DNA of 64,000 bases from an uncultured Methylomirabilota bacterium (lineage in GTDB: Bacteria > Methylomirabilota > Methylomirabilia > Methylomirabilales > 2-02-FULL-66-22), in the NCBI GenBank assembly GCA_963705305.1, contig OY970067.1, positions 2,816,001 to 2,880,000 of the forward strand, given 5' to 3'. Below the pieces are notes generated by a model, which was not told the DNA's origin, made no database searches, and saw only the letters and a list, made by a program, of their open reading frames with translations. The position numbers were made by a program, and so were the translations under genes. Of this stretch, positions 35,609 through 41,472 are shown in pieces. The stretch's first letter is position 1. Each line of letters begins with the position of its first letter.

Positions 35609-36458
35609 CATGCAGATCGGTCCGAGGTCACGGACGCCATTGTACGGGTCAAGCAGCGCCAGGAACTCAGCGGTCAAGAGAGAGTGGCTCACGAGCTTGC
35701 ACCAGTGCTGGACAGCCCTCCGGGACTTCCGGGGCGTCGGAGGGGCCAACTCGCACCAGTTCTCTTCTGTTGCGAGTTGTGGAGGAGCTGGGTGAGGGCA
35801 TTGGCCGCCCGCAGCTTGTCCTCCTTGGTGACCCTGGCGTCGATCGTGGTCGCCTTGATGCTCGCGTGCACCACTTACTCCTGGACGACCGCCAGGTCGT
35901 TCCCGCTGGCCCGGTCCAGGTGGGTGGCGTAGGTGTGCCGACAACTGTGAGTGGCGTACCGGGGATCCAGCCCCACGGCCGCCATGAGGCCTTTCACCAC
36001 CCGCCAGACCCCCTTCCGGGTGAGGGGCCCCCGCTGGCCGAGGAAGACCGGGGCCTCCTCGGACACATTCTCCCCAAGGTCCCGCTTCCAGGTCAGGAAG
36101 GCTTTCAGGTGCGTCTTGAGGTCCGGGGGGATGAAGACCTCCCGCTGCTTGTTCCCCTTGCCCTGGCGGACCGCCAGTGAGGCCTGGCCGTAGCCCAGGA
36201 GGCAGTCCCGGACTTGGGGGCCGGCCACCTCGGAGGCCCGGAGGCCGGAAGAGAGAAGGGGGTCGAGTGGCCGCAACACCATAGACGTCGTCACCTTTCA
36301 CCACGACGGCAGTCGTCACCGTCAGTGATCGTTCATCCGGTGGTTCCCTTTCTCGAGAGGCCCGCCTAGGTTCGGTCCAACTTACCTCCCGGTATCCATC
36401 CTGAGCGGAAGCCCGGCCCATCGGGTACGGTGTCGCCTTCCATCTGGGAGGTGAATCG

Positions 36459-36785
36459 ATGCCCCGAGCTCCGCGGCGCCGACGGTGCCCCTTCTGTCAG
36501 ACTCTCTTCCGTCCGCATCCCCGCCTGGGGCCGCGGCAATGGACCTGCGGGGCGCCCGCCTGTCAGCAGCAGCGGCATGCCGCCAGCTGTCGGGCTTGGC
36601 GCCGCCGGAACCGTGCCGTGACCCGCACGCACTACCGGGACTACGTGCACCCGGCCCGGGCGCGGGCCGCGCCCACGCCGGTCTCCCCGCGCCAGGTGGC
36701 GAGCTTCCTGCGCGGCGTGCTCCCTGCGATGCGAGACGCGATTATGGCGCAAGGGCAACCCCCATGCGGGGTTCGGGCCCCCTAG
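36459..36785 (+). CDS. small basic Cys-rich putative zinc-finger protein inside IS21
   Basis: Strong GGGAGGTG RBS; CPFC...CGAPAC...C; Arg-rich. Confidence 0.75.
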   Translation: MPRAPRRRRCPFCQTLFRPHPRLGPRQWTCGAPACQQQRHAASCRAWRRRNRAVTRTHYRDYVHPARARAAPTPVSPRQVASFLRGVLPAMRDAIMAQGQPPCGVRAP

Positions 36786-36956
36786 AATGCACCCCGGACG
36801 GCGCGAGACGCGATCTGGTCGGTTCGGGCTGGGTTCCCGCGGGGTTACACCCTCCTAACTGCATGAGGGCGCGAGACGCGATCTGGCGTCAAGCCCTGAT
36901 CCCACGGGCCCTTCGCCCCCGTTAGTGCGCCGCGGGAAGGTGATACGAGACGCGAT
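36732..36956 (+). repeat. array of four 11-bp direct repeats at ~70-bp period
   Basis: CGAGACGCGAT at 36732, 36804, 36872 and 36946 (spacing 72, 68, 74). Confidence 0.9.
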
Positions 36957-37009
36957 AGGCGGATCGGGAGTTCGGTGGTACACCCGGGGCATCCGGAAGG
37001 AGGTGCCCC

Positions 37010-38509
37010 ATGCTGGCCGCCGCGATTCAAGCCGAGATCCTCCGGCTCCGCTATGCCGAGCGCTGGGGCTACAGCCAGATCGCTCGCCACCTCGGCATCC
37101 ACCGGGAGAGCGCCCGGAAGGTGGCGCTGCGCCGGAGCGTGGCCTTGGTGCCCGCGCCGCCGGCGCCGCGGACCACGGTGGTCACGCCGTTCCGGGCCCG
37201 CATCCAGGCGCTGCTCACCGAGGACCCGGCGCGCTCGGCGGTGACGATCTTCCAGGTGCTCCGGCAGGAGGGCTACCGGGGCGGCAGCAGCGCGCTGCGG
37301 GGCGCCGTGCGCCGGCTGCGGCCGAGTGCCGCGCCAGCTGCCATGGCCACGCTCAGCTTCGGCCGCGGGGAGGCCGCCCAGGTGGACTGGGGCGAGTTCG
37401 GCGACGTCTTCGGGATCGGCCGGGCCGTCCATGCCTTCGTGCTCGTCCTGTGCTACTCCCGGCTCTTGACCGTCACCTTCACCTTCAGCCAGACCCTCGA
37501 GGCGTTCCTGCGGTGCCACGAGGCTGCCTTCGCCTTCGTGGGCGGCTGCCCAAAGGAGTGCTGGTACGACAACCTGGCGACGGCGGTGGCCGAGCGGCAC
37601 GGGAAGCTCGTCCGCTTCCACCCGCGCTTCCTGGCGTACGCCGGCCACCACCGCTTCCGGCCGGTGGCCTGCAACGTGGGCAAAGGGAACGAGAAGGGGC
37701 GGGTCGAGGACGCCATCAAGTACCTCCGGACGAACTTCTGGCCGGGGCGGACCTTCCGCGATCTCGCCGATCTGAACACGCAGGCCCAGGCGTGGCGGGA
37801 CACGATCGCGAACCAGCGCGAGCACCGCGTGACCCGGAAGATCCCCGCGCTCCTCGTCGCCGAGGAGCGGCCGGCCTTGCTCCCACTGGGGGAGCCGTAC
37901 GACACGGACGAGGTGCGGAGCGTGGTGGTGCCGCCGAGCTTCCGCGTGGCCTTCGACGGGAACCGGTACTCGGTCCCCTGGCGCTTGGTGGGGAAGCCGC
38001 TCACGCTGCGAGCGGATGCGGACACGGTGACCCTCTGGTATGGCACCCATCGCGTGGCGCGGCATGGCCGCTGCTGGCGGCGCGGGGTGGAGGTGGTGCT
38101 CCCGGCCCACGCCGACGGGCTCCTGGCCACCAAGCCCGGTGCGCAGGCCCACTGGCAGGTCGAGGCCGTGCAGGCGCTGGGGCCCGCGGCCCGGCAGTAC
38201 CTGGAACTCATCCGGGCGGGGACGCGCTCGCTCCGGACGGAGTTGGACCACCTGCTGCTCCTCACGACCCTCTATGGCCCGGCCGCGGTGGAAGCCGCGC
38301 TCGCCGCGTGCCTCGCCCAGGCCATCGTCGGGAGCCACCAGGTCGAGCAGTGGCTCCGGCTCCAGGACACGCCGCCCGTGGCGCCGCCCCCACTCACGCT
38401 CGGGGATCCCCGATTGAGCGTGCCGCCGGTGCGCCCCAACCTGCAGCGGTACGATGCCCTGCTCCTCGACGCCGATCCGGAGGACCATGATGGCAACCCC
38501 GACGCTTGA
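37010..38509 (+). CDS. istA: IS21 transposase IstA
   Basis: N-terminal HTH; DDE motifs AQVDWG, WYDN, KGRVE; FDGNRYSVP. Confidence 0.93.
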   Translation: MLAAAIQAEILRLRYAERWGYSQIARHLGIHRESARKVALRRSVALVPAPPAPRTTVVTPFRARIQALLTEDPARSAVTIFQVLRQEGYRGGSSALRGAVRRLRPSAAPAAMATLSFGRGEAAQVDWGEFGDVFGIGRAVHAFVLVLCYSRLLTVTFTFSQTLEAFLRCHEAAFAFVGGCPKECWYDNLATAVAERHGKLVRFHPRFLAYAGHHRFRPVACNVGKGNEKGRVEDAIKYLRTNFWPGRTFRDLADLNTQAQAWRDTIANQREHRVTRKIPALLVAEERPALLPLGEPYDTDEVRSVVVPPSFRVAFDGNRYSVPWRLVGKPLTLRADADTVTLWYGTHRVARHGRCWRRGVEVVLPAHADGLLATKPGAQAHWQVEAVQALGPAARQYLELIRAGTRSLRTELDHLLLLTTLYGPAAVEAALAACLAQAIVGSHQVEQWLRLQDTPPVAPPPLTLGDPRLSVPPVRPNLQRYDALLLDADPEDHDGNPDA

Positions 38510-39257
38510 GGAGAAGCTGACCCAGCTCCAGCTCATGAGTGCCCCCGCGTTCCTCGCCGCGTGGGGCGAGCGGCATCCCGCCGAACGCGCGGCAGTCCGC
38601 GCGGTGCTCGAGGGGCTCGTCGATCGGGAGCTCACGCGGCGGAGCGAGCAGAAGGTGGCGGCGCGGATCAGGGCCGCGCGCTTCGTCCAGCTGCAGACGG
38701 CAGACACGTTCAACTTCGAGTACAGCGTCGCCACCCGGAAGCTCCGGAGTCGCTACCTGAACCTCTTGGCCACCGACCTCGTGGTCGAGGGGATCGGGGC
38801 GCTGTTCGTCGGGGGGAGTGGCTTGGGGAAGACGCATCTCGCCCGGGCCTTGGGCTATGCCCAGTGCCAACGCGGGCAGAGCGTCCTGTTCACGTCGCTC
38901 GCCGCCATGGTGAACCACCTGAGCGCGGCGGAGGCGACGAAGACCTTGCACCGGGCGCTCAAGACGTACCAGAGCCCCGGGTTGCTGGAGATCGACGAGG
39001 TCGGGTACGTCAGCCTGCGCCAGCCGGAGAGCCACCTCGTGTTCCAGGTGATCTCCGTCCGGCATGACCGGCGGAAGCCAACGGTGGTCACCACGAATCG
39101 CACGTTTGGCGAGTGGAATCAGATCTTCGCCGACGACGCCGTGGCGCACGCCATCCTGGACCGGCTCGCGGAGCGGGCCGAGGTCTTCCACCTGGAAGGG
39201 ACGAGCTATCGCGAGACCCACCGCCGCCCCGCGCCGAAGGTCGCGACACCTTCGTAG
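38490..39257 (+). CDS. istB: IS21 helper AAA+ ATPase IstB
   Basis: Walker A GGSGLGKT, Walker B IDEVGY, TTN, AILDRL, GTSYR; overlaps the istA end. Confidence 0.93.
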   Translation: MATPTLEEKLTQLQLMSAPAFLAAWGERHPAERAAVRAVLEGLVDRELTRRSEQKVAARIRAARFVQLQTADTFNFEYSVATRKLRSRYLNLLATDLVVEGIGALFVGGSGLGKTHLARALGYAQCQRGQSVLFTSLAAMVNHLSAAEATKTLHRALKTYQSPGLLEIDEVGYVSLRQPESHLVFQVISVRHDRRKPTVVTTNRTFGEWNQIFADDAVAHAILDRLAERAEVFHLEGTSYRETHRRPAPKVATPS

Positions 39258-39877
39258 TCGGGGTCCGCTGCCCGCGTCTCCCTGCGACGGGCGTGTTGGC
39301 GCCTCAAATCTCCCGCGCCTGCGCACCCGTCTGCCTCGCGCCTCACAGTGCCGGGATCCATCGTGGCGCTGCCGGTGCCCTTCCCGCCGAAAAGCGACGA
39401 TCTCGATGGTGGCGCCTCCAGTCGAGCAGGCCCCAGGACCGGATCGGCCCTGTAGTGCCCTGCTGGCGGGCCTGGGTTGCCCGAGATTCGGCGAACCGGC
39501 GGAGGCGGGTCAGGTTCCTCCGCGGTCAGAGAACGGATCTCGTGCTGGACGGTAGGCATGAGCGCATCTCCTTGCATCGCAGCTGACCCGACCGCCGCCG
39601 GCCGCGCGCCAGGGTGAAGCTCATTCCCCGGGACCCCCGGAGCGGCTACATGCGCCACCCCGAGGCGATCGGGCGTCAGGCCAGAGTGTTCGCTGGGCGG
39701 CCTCGGGCAGAGCGGGCGGTCCGGAGGCGGTCTGCCGCCGCGCGCCGTTGCTCCACGGTCCCCGCCCGACCGGGCCCTGGCCGGCGCACTCGGATCGCGG
39801 GGAGGGGAACCACCCAGAAGGCCGAGGTCGCCTTCCCGTCGCGGCCCAGCGGCTCTCCTCTCCCGTTTTGCCTTCCA

Positions 39878-40112
39878 GTTGCGCGGGGACTGCGCCGCCG
39901 TTCATCAGGGTGCTAACCCCACTCCGGAAAAATCTCACCGCCACGTCGCCAAGAATGCCATGGTTGAAATGGACGGATCACCCAGGGACCGGACGGCGGC
40001 GAGTTCCCTGGGGGCGTCTCGGAGCACGGAGGAAAGCCAGCTGAACGACTTGCATCGAGGAGCCTTGGCGCCATGGTGGTTCAAGCGTTTCTATGGTGCA
40101 GGGCTCATTTTT
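39878..40112. repeat. right copy of ~235-bp direct repeat
   Basis: 79/80 core identity with 25201-25280; ends just before TTGACA (40117) upstream of lysA. Confidence 0.9.
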
Positions 40113-40212
40113 GATTTTGACAGGCCGGGTCACGTGTGATACCCATTCCCCGAATTGGCCGGCATTCACGCCGCCGTTCCCCTCTCCCCATCGGGAAGAA
40201 AGGCGTTGCGGG

Positions 40213-41472
40213 ATGCACGAGTTTCGTTTTCGCGGTGACGCATTGCATTGCGAGGGGGTCCCCGTCGCGAAGATCGCGGCGGAGGTCGGCACCCCGGCCT
40301 ACGTGTACAGCCATGCGACCCTGACCCGCCATTTCCGGGTGTTCGACGAGGCCTTCGCGTCGGTCCCCCACCTGGTCTGCTTTGCCTTGAAGGCCAACGC
40401 CAACCTGGCCGTCCTGCGGCTGTTCGCCGGATTGGGCGGTGGCCTGGACGTGGTGTCAGCCGGCGAGCTGTTCCGGGGGCTCCGGGCGGGGGTTCCGCCC
40501 CAGCGCATCGTCTATGCCGGCGTCGGCAAATCGCGGGACGAGATCGCCTACGCCCTGAAGTCCGACATCCTCATGTTCAACGTGGAGTCGGAGCAGGAAC
40601 TGCGCCTGATCCACGAGGTGGCCTCCGGCATGGGGAGCACGGCCCGGGTAGCGCTGCGGGTGAACCCCGACGTGGATCCCAAGACCCACCCCTACATCTC
40701 CACGGGCCTGCGCCAGAGCAAGTTCGGGATCGCCATCGACCAGGCGGCGGACCTGTACGAGGCGGCCCGCCGCCTCCGGTCCCTGGAGGTGGTGGGGATC
40801 CATCAGCACATCGGATCGCAGATCACCAGCGTGCGCCCCTTCGTGGATGCCCTGGAGAAGACGGCCTCGCTGGTGCGGAGGCTGCGCGATCGGGGGACGC
40901 ACATCCGCTACGTCGACGTGGGCGGCGGGCTGGGGATCACTTACAAGGACGAAGAGCCGCCGCTTCCCGGCGACCTTGCGCGAGGCCTGCTGGAGATCGT
41001 GCGGGATCTGGGCGCCACGCTCCTCCTCGAGCCGGGGCGGGTGCTGGTCGGCAACGCCGGGATCCTGGTCACGCGGGTCCTGTACACCAAGGAGACGCCG
41101 GCCAAGAACTTCCTGGTGGTGGACGCCGGGATGAACGACCTGGCCCGGCCGAGCCTCTACGGCTCGTACCACGCCATCCAGCCGGTGCAGCGGACGGCCG
41201 GCCGGCCCGAGGTGACGGTGGACGTCGTGGGACCCATCTGCGAGTCTGGGGATTTCCTGGCCAAGGAGCGCCGGCTGCCGGCCTGCGAGCCCGGGGAGCT
41301 CCTGGCGGTGATGTCGGCCGGGGCCTACGGCCACACCATGTCCTCCAACTACAACGCACGGCCGCGGGCACCGGAGATTCTGGTGCGCGGGGACCGGTAC
41401 TACGTCGTGCGCGAGCGGGAGACGCTCGATGATCTGATCCACGGGGAGCACACTCTGGACGAGCTGGCGTGA
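40213..41472 (+). CDS. lysA: diaminopimelate decarboxylase
   Basis: GTPAYVYS, FALKAN, HPYISTG...SKFG, HIGSQI, EPGR, GPICESGD, MSSNYN. Confidence 0.96.
   Translation: MHEFRFRGDALHCEGVPVAKIAAEVGTPAYVYSHATLTRHFRVFDEAFASVPHLVCFALKANANLAVLRLFAGLGGGLDVVSAGELFRGLRAGVPPQRIVYAGVGKSRDEIAYALKSDILMFNVESEQELRLIHEVASGMGSTARVALRVNPDVDPKTHPYISTGLRQSKFGIAIDQAADLYEAARRLRSLEVVGIHQHIGSQITSVRPFVDALEKTASLVRRLRDRGTHIRYVDVGGGLGITYKDEEPPLPGDLARGLLEIVRDLGATLLLEPGRVLVGNAGILVTRVLYTKETPAKNFLVVDAGMNDLARPSLYGSYHAIQPVQRTAGRPEVTVDVVGPICESGDFLAKERRLPACEPGELLAVMSAGAYGHTMSSNYNARPRAPEILVRGDRYYVVRERETLDDLIHGEHTLDELA

What the first reader, a model, noticed from the sequence alone, without database searches (positions are those of the whole stretch)
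36268..39420. IS21-family element carrying a Zn-finger gene and a regularly spaced repeat array upstream of istA
Seen: the element has defined ends (TG...CA, 21/30 inverted match, 6-bp TSD GTCGAG). About 740 bp before istA hold a 108-aa Cys/Arg-rich ORF with a strong RBS and a 4-copy repeat array. Established: canonical IS21 elements encode only IstA and IstB, with repeats clustered at the ends. Inference: this is a three-gene IS21 subtype in which the small protein and the array form an accessory module, such as a regulator with iterated operators, a targeting factor, or a protein that binds a processed RNA. This is the best candidate here for an undescribed system.
Basis: partly seen in the sequence, partly recalled or inferred. 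Interest (0 to 1): 0.85.

Follow-up and report, generated by a model that had tools for sequence, protein, structure and literature searches.

The report
IS21 transposon with zinc-ribbon gene and site array
This is a real, recently mobile IS21-type insertion sequence that carries, besides its two transposition genes, a conserved small zinc-ribbon gene and a regularly spaced array of short sequence boxes, a combination that is widespread in environmental bacteria and that I did not find described.

Summary
Window 36268-39420 is a 3153-bp IS21-family element with a 6-bp target duplication (GTCGAG). The genome holds a second full copy, a third broken copy and two empty target sites.

The 108-aa ORF is a real gene. 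It has 116 homologues of 79-152 aa (nearly all 104-116 aa) and its profile finds 1169 clusters. It has no Pfam or NCBIfam family and no fold match.

The box CGAGACGCGAT occurs four times, 72, 68 and 74 bp apart. It starts inside the 3' end of the ORF and ends 64 bp before the istA start. All four copies are present in 73 of 84 related loci.

Distant IS21 elements (IstA about 28% identical) carry the same zinc-ribbon N-domain and a 3-copy, 69-bp-spaced array of a related box, plus a ParB-like gene. None of 14 IS21 loci without the zinc-ribbon gene has such an array.

The box differs from the terminal IstA repeats and is absent from the right end. The region shows no stable RNA fold.

Zn-bearing IstAs form at least two separate clades; one clade is rejected (AU p 0.0055).

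My best reading, which is inferred and not shown, is that the zinc-ribbon protein binds the iterated boxes to control istAB expression or transpososome assembly. This is a new variant of a known kind.

The parts
36262..36267 (.). Left copy of the 6-bp target-site duplication, GTCGAG
   Evidence: At the empty sites in the same genome the two flanks overlap by 6 bp. Sequence read.
36268..36320 (+). Left terminal inverted repeat, starting TGG. It holds two direct sub-repeats 25 bp apart (L1 at 36274-36295, L2 at 36299-36320).
   Evidence: Family D10. Conserved in 21 relatives. The spacing is like the 23-bp L1-L2 spacing described for IS21 (passages of PMC10122671).
36459..36785 (+). 108-aa C4 zinc-ribbon, arginine-rich protein gene, the third gene of the element
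   Evidence: ORF. 116 homologues. 1169 clusters found by profile. No Pfam or NCBIfam family. AF2 pLDDT 81.
36728..36960 (+). Array of four direct box A copies (CGAGACGCGAT at 36732, 36804, 36872 and 36946). The first three units also carry a conserved GTT about 41 nt after the box start and a conserved TA about 51 nt after it.
37010..38509 (+). istA, the IS21-family DDE transposase (499 aa)
   Evidence: NF033546 at 265 bits against a cut-off of 160. Pfam rve and Mu-transpos_C_2.
38454..39257 (+). istB, the AAA+ helper ATPase (267 aa). It overlaps the end of istA.
   Evidence: PF01695 at 178 bits. NF038214 at 187 bits, below its cut-off of 200.
39359..39420 (-). Right terminal inverted repeat, ending CCA
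   Evidence: Conserved in 16 relatives.
39421..39426 (.). Right copy of the target-site duplication, GTCGAG
35875..36267 (-). Interrupted host target: an open frame with a Phage_integrase domain, possibly already degraded
   Evidence: PF00589 at 54.6 bits. In an uninterrupted copy the frame is only 163 aa from stop to stop.

Best explanation
Window 36268-39420 is an intact, recently active IS21-family insertion sequence of a three-gene subtype. In addition to canonical terminal repeats, istA and istB, it carries a cassette placed between the left end and istA. The cassette has two parts. The first is a gene for a small C4 zinc-ribbon, arginine-rich protein. The second is a same-strand array of four 11-15-nt boxes spaced about 70 bp apart. 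The array begins inside the last codons of the zinc-ribbon gene and ends 64 nt before the istA start codon.

Shown here: the element's mobility, the reality and conservation of the gene, and the conservation of the number, position and spacing of the boxes. Also shown: gene and array co-occur across deeply diverged IS21 lineages, the array is absent from IS21 elements that lack the gene, and the box is distinct from the IstA terminal sites.

Inferred: the zinc-ribbon protein is the sequence-specific reader of the boxes, most likely on double-stranded DNA. The resulting multi-site nucleoprotein complex sits directly upstream of the transposition genes. It would set the level of istAB expression (an operator array) and/or help or gate transpososome assembly, in the way the phage Mu operator/enhancer region does.

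In related elements the slot between the array and istA holds a further DNA-binding-type gene (ParB-like, or an unassigned 120-130-aa ORF). This suggests the array is a platform used by exchangeable partners.
For: Mobility. There are three copies, independent 6-bp duplications and empty sites.

Gene reality. The ORF has 116 homologues at 58-94% identity, 79-152 aa long and nearly all 104-116 aa. C30 of the four-Cys pattern is invariant and C10, C13 and C35 are at least 90% conserved. The AF2 pLDDT is 81. A profile finds 1169 clusters at E<=1e-3.

Array conservation. 73 of 84 close-family loci have 4 copies, at fixed offsets from the ORF end. Box columns are invariant or nearly so across 65 distinct sequences, while mean column identity is 70%. 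Unit lengths vary by only +/-1 nt: 71-73, 67-69 and 73-75.

Deep co-conservation. In loci whose IstA is about 28% identical, the zinc-ribbon N-domain (residues 1-51, 42-51% identical) is followed 220-400 bp later by three related boxes, GCG[AC]AAGAC[CG]AG[AT]T, spaced 69 and 69 bp. This holds in 21 of 29 loci.

Controls. None of 14 IS21 loci without the zinc-ribbon gene has a true array with 60-80-bp spacing, and none of 100 shuffled segments gives a 3-chain.

Not IstA end sites. The terminal consensus CACCwTCGACGTCGTCAC differs from the box. The box never occurs in inverted orientation at the right end. A canonical relative (L160) shows the contrast: 8 left-end and 3 inverted right-end repeats at 21-23-bp spacing.

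Not a folded RNA. RNAalifold gives -3.4 kcal/mol with no covarying pairs. The mean MFE z-score is -0.21 on the + strand for 17 sequences. Rfam gives no hit.

Concerted variant. One sublineage has CGAGACTCGAT in copies 2-4, while copy 1 keeps GCG because it encodes Ala.

Position. The last box lies 64 nt (this element) or 50 nt (L038) before the start codon of the next gene.
Against: No binding was measured or modelled. The protein has no detectable relative of known function and no fold match: Foldseek gave E>=3.7 and VIA-align gave Z<=3.3. DNA binding therefore rests only on composition and context.

No sigma-70-like promoter was found in 36200-37100, so an operator role has no identified promoter to act on.

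Same-strand orientation and an arginine-rich helix fit RNA recognition equally well. One homologue gives a weak match (E 0.006) to the lambda N arginine-rich RNA-binding peptide.

The spacings of 72, 68 and 74 bp do not put the boxes on one helical face.

The residue-to-box correlation I looked for is nested in phylogeny and inconclusive. All 15 T-variant arrays have Asn43, but so do 8 G-type arrays.

Zinc-ribbon N-domain homologues also occur in 4 of 37 loci outside IS21 and without an array.
Confidence: 0.45

Rival explanations
1. RNA-level control. The zinc-ribbon gene, the array and istAB are one transcript. The arginine-rich zinc-ribbon protein binds the repeated single-stranded box in the leader RNA and regulates translation of the next gene or the stability of the message.
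For: All boxes lie on the coding strand in every lineage. The last box lies 50-64 nt before the next start codon. By eye, a strong SD (AAGGAGGTG) before istA is flanked by complementary GGGGC(C)ACC and GGTGCCCC segments in the alignment. There is an arginine-rich helix, and one homologue gives a weak N36 match. No promoter consensus lies between the zinc-ribbon gene and istA.
Against: There is no conserved RNA structure, no thermodynamic signal and no Rfam hit. The spacing between boxes is held to +/-1 nt in non-coding units. That is expected for a DNA architecture and is not required for independent single-stranded RNA sites. No transcript data exist.
Confidence: 0.2
2. The array is an internal enhancer or architectural site used by IstA or a host factor during synapsis. 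The zinc-ribbon protein has a different job, such as target choice or control of IstB.
For: IstA shares domain order with MuA (passages of PMC10122671; Mu-transpos_C_2 hit). From recall, Mu uses an internal enhancer about 1 kb from its left end. The array lies 465-690 bp from the left end.
Against: Arrays were found only where the zinc-ribbon gene is present, and in none of 14 loci without it. The first box always overlaps the 3' end of that gene. IstA here begins with the usual HTH and shows no extra N-terminal domain.
Confidence: 0.15
3. The gene is a passenger, and the array is a leftover of tandem duplication of the gene's 3' end with no function.
For: Units 1-3 share the same internal layout: box, then GTT, then TA. 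In unit 1 this layout ends at the stop codon. This is consistent with an origin by duplication.
Against: The boxes stay invariant while the spacers diverge. Number and spacing are kept in 73 of 84 loci. A related array persists in a clade whose IstA is only about 28% identical. Three box copies changed in concert in one sublineage.
Confidence: 0.05

Closest known systems
Canonical IS21-family elements (IS21, IS5376)
   Same: They share an IstA DDE transposase, an IstB AAA+ helper, TG...CA ends with L1-L2 and R1-R2 direct sub-repeats about 23-25 bp apart, and a short target duplication (passages of PMC10122671).
   Different: This element has an extra 742-bp left region with a third gene and an internal array of a different motif. 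The array is in one orientation only, is spaced about 70 bp and is absent from the right end. The canonical contrast was seen in L160.
Phage Mu operator/enhancer (IAS) with repressor c and Ner (recalled, not tested here)
   Same: In both, a MuA-type transposase system has multiple internal sites some hundred bp inside the left end, upstream of the transposase gene and next to a small regulator gene.
   Different: There is no sequence or fold relation of the zinc-ribbon protein to the Mu repressor. No enhancer-binding domain was detected in IstA. The function is untested.
IS1 InsA (recalled: a small zinc-finger/HTH protein that binds the IS1 ends and represses transposase expression)
   Same: Both are small element-encoded zinc-binding proteins encoded upstream of the transposase.
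   Different: InsA acts at the terminal repeats and shares reading frames with the transposase. Here the sites form a separate internal array and the gene is independent. No homology was detected.
ParB with centromere-like site arrays, such as F sopC with 12 x 43 bp (recalled)
   Same: Both have iterated same-orientation sites. Distant relatives of this element encode a ParB-like protein directly after the array: HTH_ParB scores 23.4-25.3 bits against a cut-off of 22.6 in 5 of the 6 proteins scanned.
   Different: The window element has no ParB-like gene. The element is an IS, not a replicon. The box is not palindromic.
TniQ/TnsD target selectors of Tn7-like transposons (PMC10293859, seen in a search listing only)
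   Same: Both are accessory zinc-finger proteins working beside a DDE transposase and an AAA+ regulator.
   Different: The protein has no TniQ or TnsD family hit and is much smaller. A target selector would not explain an internal site array.

Membership tests
IS21 family insertion sequence | IstA DDE transposase of the IS21 type | tested here: met
   NF033546 scores 265.1 bits against a cut-off of 160. Pfam rve and Mu-transpos_C_2 also hit.
IS21 family insertion sequence | IstB AAA+ helper gene directly downstream of istA | tested here: met
   PF01695 scores 178 bits against a cut-off of 24. The stricter NF038214 scores 187 bits, below its cut-off of 200.
IS21 family insertion sequence | Terminal inverted repeats ending TG/CA, with two or more direct sub-repeats about 23 bp apart | tested here: met
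   The L1 and L2 sub-repeats lie 25 bp apart. The ends are conserved in 21 left ends and 16 right ends of relatives. The feature definition is taken from passages of PMC10122671.
IS21 family insertion sequence | Short target duplication and evidence of transposition | tested here: met
   Two independent insertions each have a 6-bp duplication, and empty sites exist.
IS21 family insertion sequence | Only two genes (istA and istB) | tested here: not met
   A conserved third gene at 36459-36785 lies inside the element.
ParB/parS-type module | A ParB-family protein encoded in the element | tested here: not met
   A ParB-like gene is present in 16 distant relatives but not in the window element or its close family.
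Known structured RNA family (Rfam) | A covariance-model match or a conserved fold | tested here: not met
   There were no Rfam matches at E<=1, no consensus structure and a mean z-score of -0.21.
CRISPR-like array | Longer repeats with variable, acquired spacers | tested here: not met
   The repeat core is 11-15 nt. The spacers can be aligned and are partly conserved across 65 relatives.
Known zinc-ribbon or DNA-binding protein family for the 108-aa protein | A profile or fold match | tested here: inconclusive
   There is no Pfam or NCBIfam hit. Foldseek against the PDB gave a best E of 3.7. VIA-align wide gave a best Z of 3.3. The ESM Atlas returned only unnamed clusters.

The most novel reading that the evidence does not exclude
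The zinc-ribbon gene and its about 70-bp-phased box array form an undescribed, portable control cassette of IS21-type transposons. It would be an internal operator/enhancer-like nucleoprotein platform that has been exchanged between IstA lineages or repeatedly lost. It would recruit interchangeable partners: a ParB-like protein in one clade, an unassigned 120-130-aa protein in another, and none in this element. This would give these simple IS elements a Mu-like layer of regulation.
Probability: 0.3. Interest if true: 0.75.

Novelty: new variant of a known kind. Interest (0 to 1): 0.6.

Why it matters
IS21 is now a structural model for transposases that are regulated by an AAA+ partner, and that model has two proteins and terminal sites only. 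A widespread subgroup seen here adds a third conserved protein and a phased internal site array, and its zinc-ribbon family numbers more than a thousand clusters. This points to an extra regulatory or architectural layer that can be tested directly with existing IS21 in vitro systems. It also gives a first context-based functional lead for a large protein family with no annotation.

Tried and rejected
- **Complex prediction.** A job with IstA, IstB and the zinc-ribbon protein (with alignments) returned no verdict: the score was 0.00 and the controls were not run.
- **Sequencing runs.** No RNA holder was listed for the element.
- **Three-frame stops.** The conserved TA triplets of units 1-3 fall in frames 0, 1 and 2 in the window, but in only 16 of 65 relatives. 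I rejected the idea.
- **Residue-to-box covariation.** Asn43 versus the T-variant box is nested in phylogeny and inconclusive. The comparison across box classes in distant loci rests on too few independent events.
- **Fused forms.** The 'longer' homologue search gave 2 hits and no informative fusion.
- **Plasmid collection.** There was no tblastn hit for the zinc-ribbon protein.
- **Fold searches.** Foldseek against the PDB and VIA-align wide gave nothing above noise.
- **Promoter and terminator scan.** Nothing was found.
- **Apparent array in a Zn-less locus.** The 3-chain in L160 turned out to be every third copy of canonical terminal repeats spaced 22 bp apart.
- **Earlier findings.** A word look-up in this scan's earlier findings returned nothing.
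- **ISfinder.** It cannot be reached with these tools, so prior listing of such elements there is not excluded.
Full report
**1.

The region 36268-39420 contains three open reading frames. They are a 108-aa frame (36459-36785), a 499-aa frame (37010-38509) and a 267-aa frame (38454-39257). The 499-aa protein scores 265 bits on the IS21 transposase model NF033546, whose cut-off is 160, and also hits rve and Mu-transpos_C_2. The 267-aa protein scores 178 bits on IstB_IS21.

A search of the window's own 5.6-Mb genome with 36200-39500 returned several matches:
- a second full copy;
- a third copy split in two;
- two places where the 68 bp left of the element and the 80 bp right of it lie adjacent and overlap by 6 bp.

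This fixes the element at 36268-39420 (3153 bp) with GTCGAG duplicated on both sides. Copy 2 differs at one base in 3153 and has its own duplication, CCGCAG. Copy 3 is interrupted by another IS21-family element and lacks the last 17 bp.

The motif CGAGACGCGAT occurs exactly four times, all on the + strand, at 36732, 36804, 36872 and 36946. In the whole genome the 12-mer GCGAGACGCGAT occurs ten times, nine of them in the three IS copies.

**2. The small ORF is a real gene of an unannotated family**

It has no Pfam or NCBIfam match. It does have 116 homologues at 58-94% identity, 79-152 aa long and nearly all 104-116 aa. C30 of the C-x2-C...C-x4-C pattern is invariant and the other three cysteines are at least 90% conserved.

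A profile of 83 members finds 1169 clusters at E<=1e-3, and 230 at E<=1e-10, among 1.84 billion representatives. Nearly all are small proteins matched through the N-terminal 50-70 residues. Eighteen of them were scanned against Pfam, and none showed a shared known domain.

AlphaFold2 gives a confident model (pLDDT 81): a zinc knuckle followed by a long helical hairpin and two short helices. Foldseek (best E 3.7) and VIA-align (best Z 3.3) both find no related solved fold. The ESM Atlas returns only unnamed clusters.

**3. The array is conserved as an array**

I examined 84 close-family loci: 4 from genomes and 80 from metagenomes, with IstA mostly 60-96% identical.
- 73 loci have all four boxes.
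- 6 loci have fewer boxes although sequence is available (L050, L086, L102, L116, L117, L126).
- 2 loci are cut by the contig end.
- 3 loci have none. Two of these end at or near the end of the ORF, and one has a truncated ORF match.

The boxes sit at fixed offsets from the ORF stop: -50, +21 or +22, +88 to +90, and +162 to +164. In an alignment of 65 distinct array regions the box columns are invariant or nearly so, while mean column identity is 70%. Unit lengths are 71-73, 67-69 and 73-75 nt. Units 1-3 also keep a GTT about 41 nt and a TA about 51 nt after the box start.

The first box lies inside the ORF and encodes its invariant R-D-A-I. In one sublineage boxes 2-4 all read CGAGACTCGAT, while box 1 keeps GCG, where the change would replace Ala. 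The signal is therefore at the nucleic-acid level and constrains the protein sequence, not the reverse.

Full-length relatives of about 3.15 kb with the same ends exist on many contigs.

**4. The cassette is much older than this family**

Thirty-seven loci in species-representative genomes encode a relative of the protein.
- 27 have istA and/or istB downstream on the same strand.
- 3 more (L033, L043, L046) have a ParB-like gene downstream; in L033 and L046 it is followed by an HTH-starting ORF cut by the contig end.
- 3 (L018, L019, L042) hold too little downstream DNA to tell.
- 4 (L032, L034, L040, L047) are in other contexts: next to a terminase, a kinase or a Fic protein, or fused to an HTH_3 domain.

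In the distant group IstA is about 28% identical to the window's, and only residues 1-51 of the small protein are conserved (42-51% identical). A ParB-like gene lies between the small gene and istA. HTH_ParB reaches its cut-off in 5 of the 6 such proteins scanned; L024's falls just below it.

An unbiased search for 12-mers recurring at 60-80-bp intervals gave these results:
- In 21 of 29 such loci it found a three-copy array spaced 69 and 69 bp (sometimes 68). The array starts 220-400 bp after the gene's start and has the motif GCG[AC]AAGAC[CG]AG[AT]T or GCGCAATCCGAG. Two further loci had two copies.
- In L038 boxes 1 and 2 lie in the last codons of the small gene. Box 3 lies 50 nt before the start of the ParB-like gene. 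A GGAGTTA sits about 39 nt after box 1, as in the window.
- The same search on 14 IS21 loci without the small gene gave one 3-chain. It proved to be every third copy of canonical 22-bp-spaced terminal repeats, which are also present inverted at the right end.
- 100 shuffled segments gave none.

In the window's own genome the small gene occurs only in the three copies and in one relic. The other IS21 types of that genome lack it.

**5. What the array is not**

- It is not the IstA end site. The termini carry TGGCCGCAACACCwTCGACGTCGTCAC, with a second sub-repeat 25 bp inside. This matches the L1-L2 arrangement described for IS21 in passages of PMC10122671. The box is different and never occurs at the right end.
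- It is not a recognisable structured RNA. Rfam gives no match at E<=1. RNAalifold on 65 sequences gives -3.4 kcal/mol with no compensatory pair. MFE z-scores of 17 array regions against dinucleotide shuffles average -0.21 on the + strand and -0.65 on the - strand.
- It is not CRISPR-like, because the spacers are homologous between relatives.

**6. Phylogeny**

On a quick maximum-likelihood IstA tree of 59 rows, the 15 ParB-less zinc-ribbon/array elements form one clade and the 16 ParB-type elements form another. Each has SH-aLRT support of 100. Lineages without the small gene lie between them, and L036 stands apart.

I left out rows under 330 aa, loci with no IstA ORF detected, and L155 and L156, which come from the unpublished genomes G101 and G058.

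On a 29-row subset the best tree that holds all 14 zinc-ribbon-bearing rows together is worse by 18.5 log-likelihood units (AU p 0.0055). Long branches are present and the deep nodes are weak, so this is moderate evidence. It indicates that the cassette was either lost several times or moved between IS21 lineages.

Within the close family a sublineage (L089, L094, L096, L124, L127) has a further 120-131-aa ORF between the array and istA. That ORF has no Pfam family. The nearest relative without the small gene (L165) has no array.

**7. Most likely mechanism**

Shown:
- A conserved small zinc-ribbon protein gene and a phased array of boxes always occur together.
- The array starts in the gene's 3' end and ends just upstream of the next gene.
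- The pair lies inside an otherwise canonical IS21.

Inferred (confidence about 0.45): the protein reads the boxes, probably on DNA. The multi-site complex would control istAB expression and/or transpososome assembly, in the manner of the Mu operator/enhancer region (recalled knowledge).

Three points favour DNA over RNA: the tight control of spacing in non-coding units, the absence of any RNA fold signal, and the presence of DNA-binding-type partner genes in the same slot in relatives.

Four points count against this reading. There are no binding data. No promoter was detected. The boxes are not on one helical face. An arginine-rich helix on a same-strand array would also suit RNA binding.

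**8. Comparison with what is known, and novelty**

The element passes the IS21 membership tests except for 'two genes only'. Four full-text searches returned no paper describing IS21 elements with a zinc-ribbon or ParB-like gene or with an internal array. For PMC10122671 I read matched passages. The other papers I saw only as listings. ISfinder could not be queried, so an existing catalogue entry is possible.

I rate the finding a new variant of a known kind. The transposon family is known. The cassette, the protein family and their deep linkage appear to be undescribed.

Noticed in passing
L003/L004 (G000:C1:4197908-4203737): The third copy of the element is split by a roughly 2.7-kb insertion of a different IS21-family element (IstA 517 aa, without the zinc-ribbon gene). 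It has also lost the last 17 bp of its right end.
   Followed up: partly
window 35875-36267 and 39421 onward (- strand); L006 1117-1605: The insertion target is an open frame with a Phage_integrase domain, and it belongs to a repeat present at least three times in the genome. Even in the uninterrupted copy the frame is only 163 aa from stop to stop, so it may be a degraded gene.
   Followed up: partly
L089 1200-1595; L124 794-1153: A sublineage of the close family has a fourth ORF of about 120-131 aa, with the motif FGWLP...LYAFLALVAD and no Pfam family. It lies between the array and istA and uses the position of the istA ribosome-binding site.
   Followed up: partly
L032, L034, L040, L047: Weak homologues of the zinc-ribbon N-domain occur outside IS21 and without an array. 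They lie near a terminase gene, a Ser/Thr kinase or a Fic protein, and in L047 the domain is fused to an Xre-type HTH_3 domain.
   Followed up: partly
L015 5001-6705: Here the zinc-ribbon gene and a 3-box array are followed by a 488-aa ORF whose C-terminal half is an IstB domain. No IstA was detected downstream.
   Followed up: no
window 36975-37012: The istA ribosome-binding site (AAGGAGGTG) is flanked by complementary segments, GGGGC(C)ACC and GGTGCCCC, in most relatives. This may be an SD-occluding hairpin. It was seen by eye in the alignment and was not tested statistically.
   Followed up: no
L160 1182-1346 and 3791-3847: A canonical IS21 relative has eight direct copies of CATCGTGAACAC at 21-23-bp spacing at the left end and three inverted copies at the right end. 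This is an unusually long run of terminal sites.
   Followed up: partly
G000:C1:1709113-1709749 (L007, L151): This is a relic of a related element. It has 74% DNA identity to the left region and a zinc-ribbon N-domain frame containing a TGA stop.
   Followed up: no
L165 1097-1471: The nearest IS21 lineage without the zinc-ribbon gene has a different 124-aa ORF directly upstream of istA and overlapping its start. Its conservation was not examined.
   Followed up: no
window 40093-41472 (+): A 459-aa ORF just right of the insertion looks by eye like a diaminopimelate decarboxylase (LysA-type). It was not scanned.
   Followed up: no
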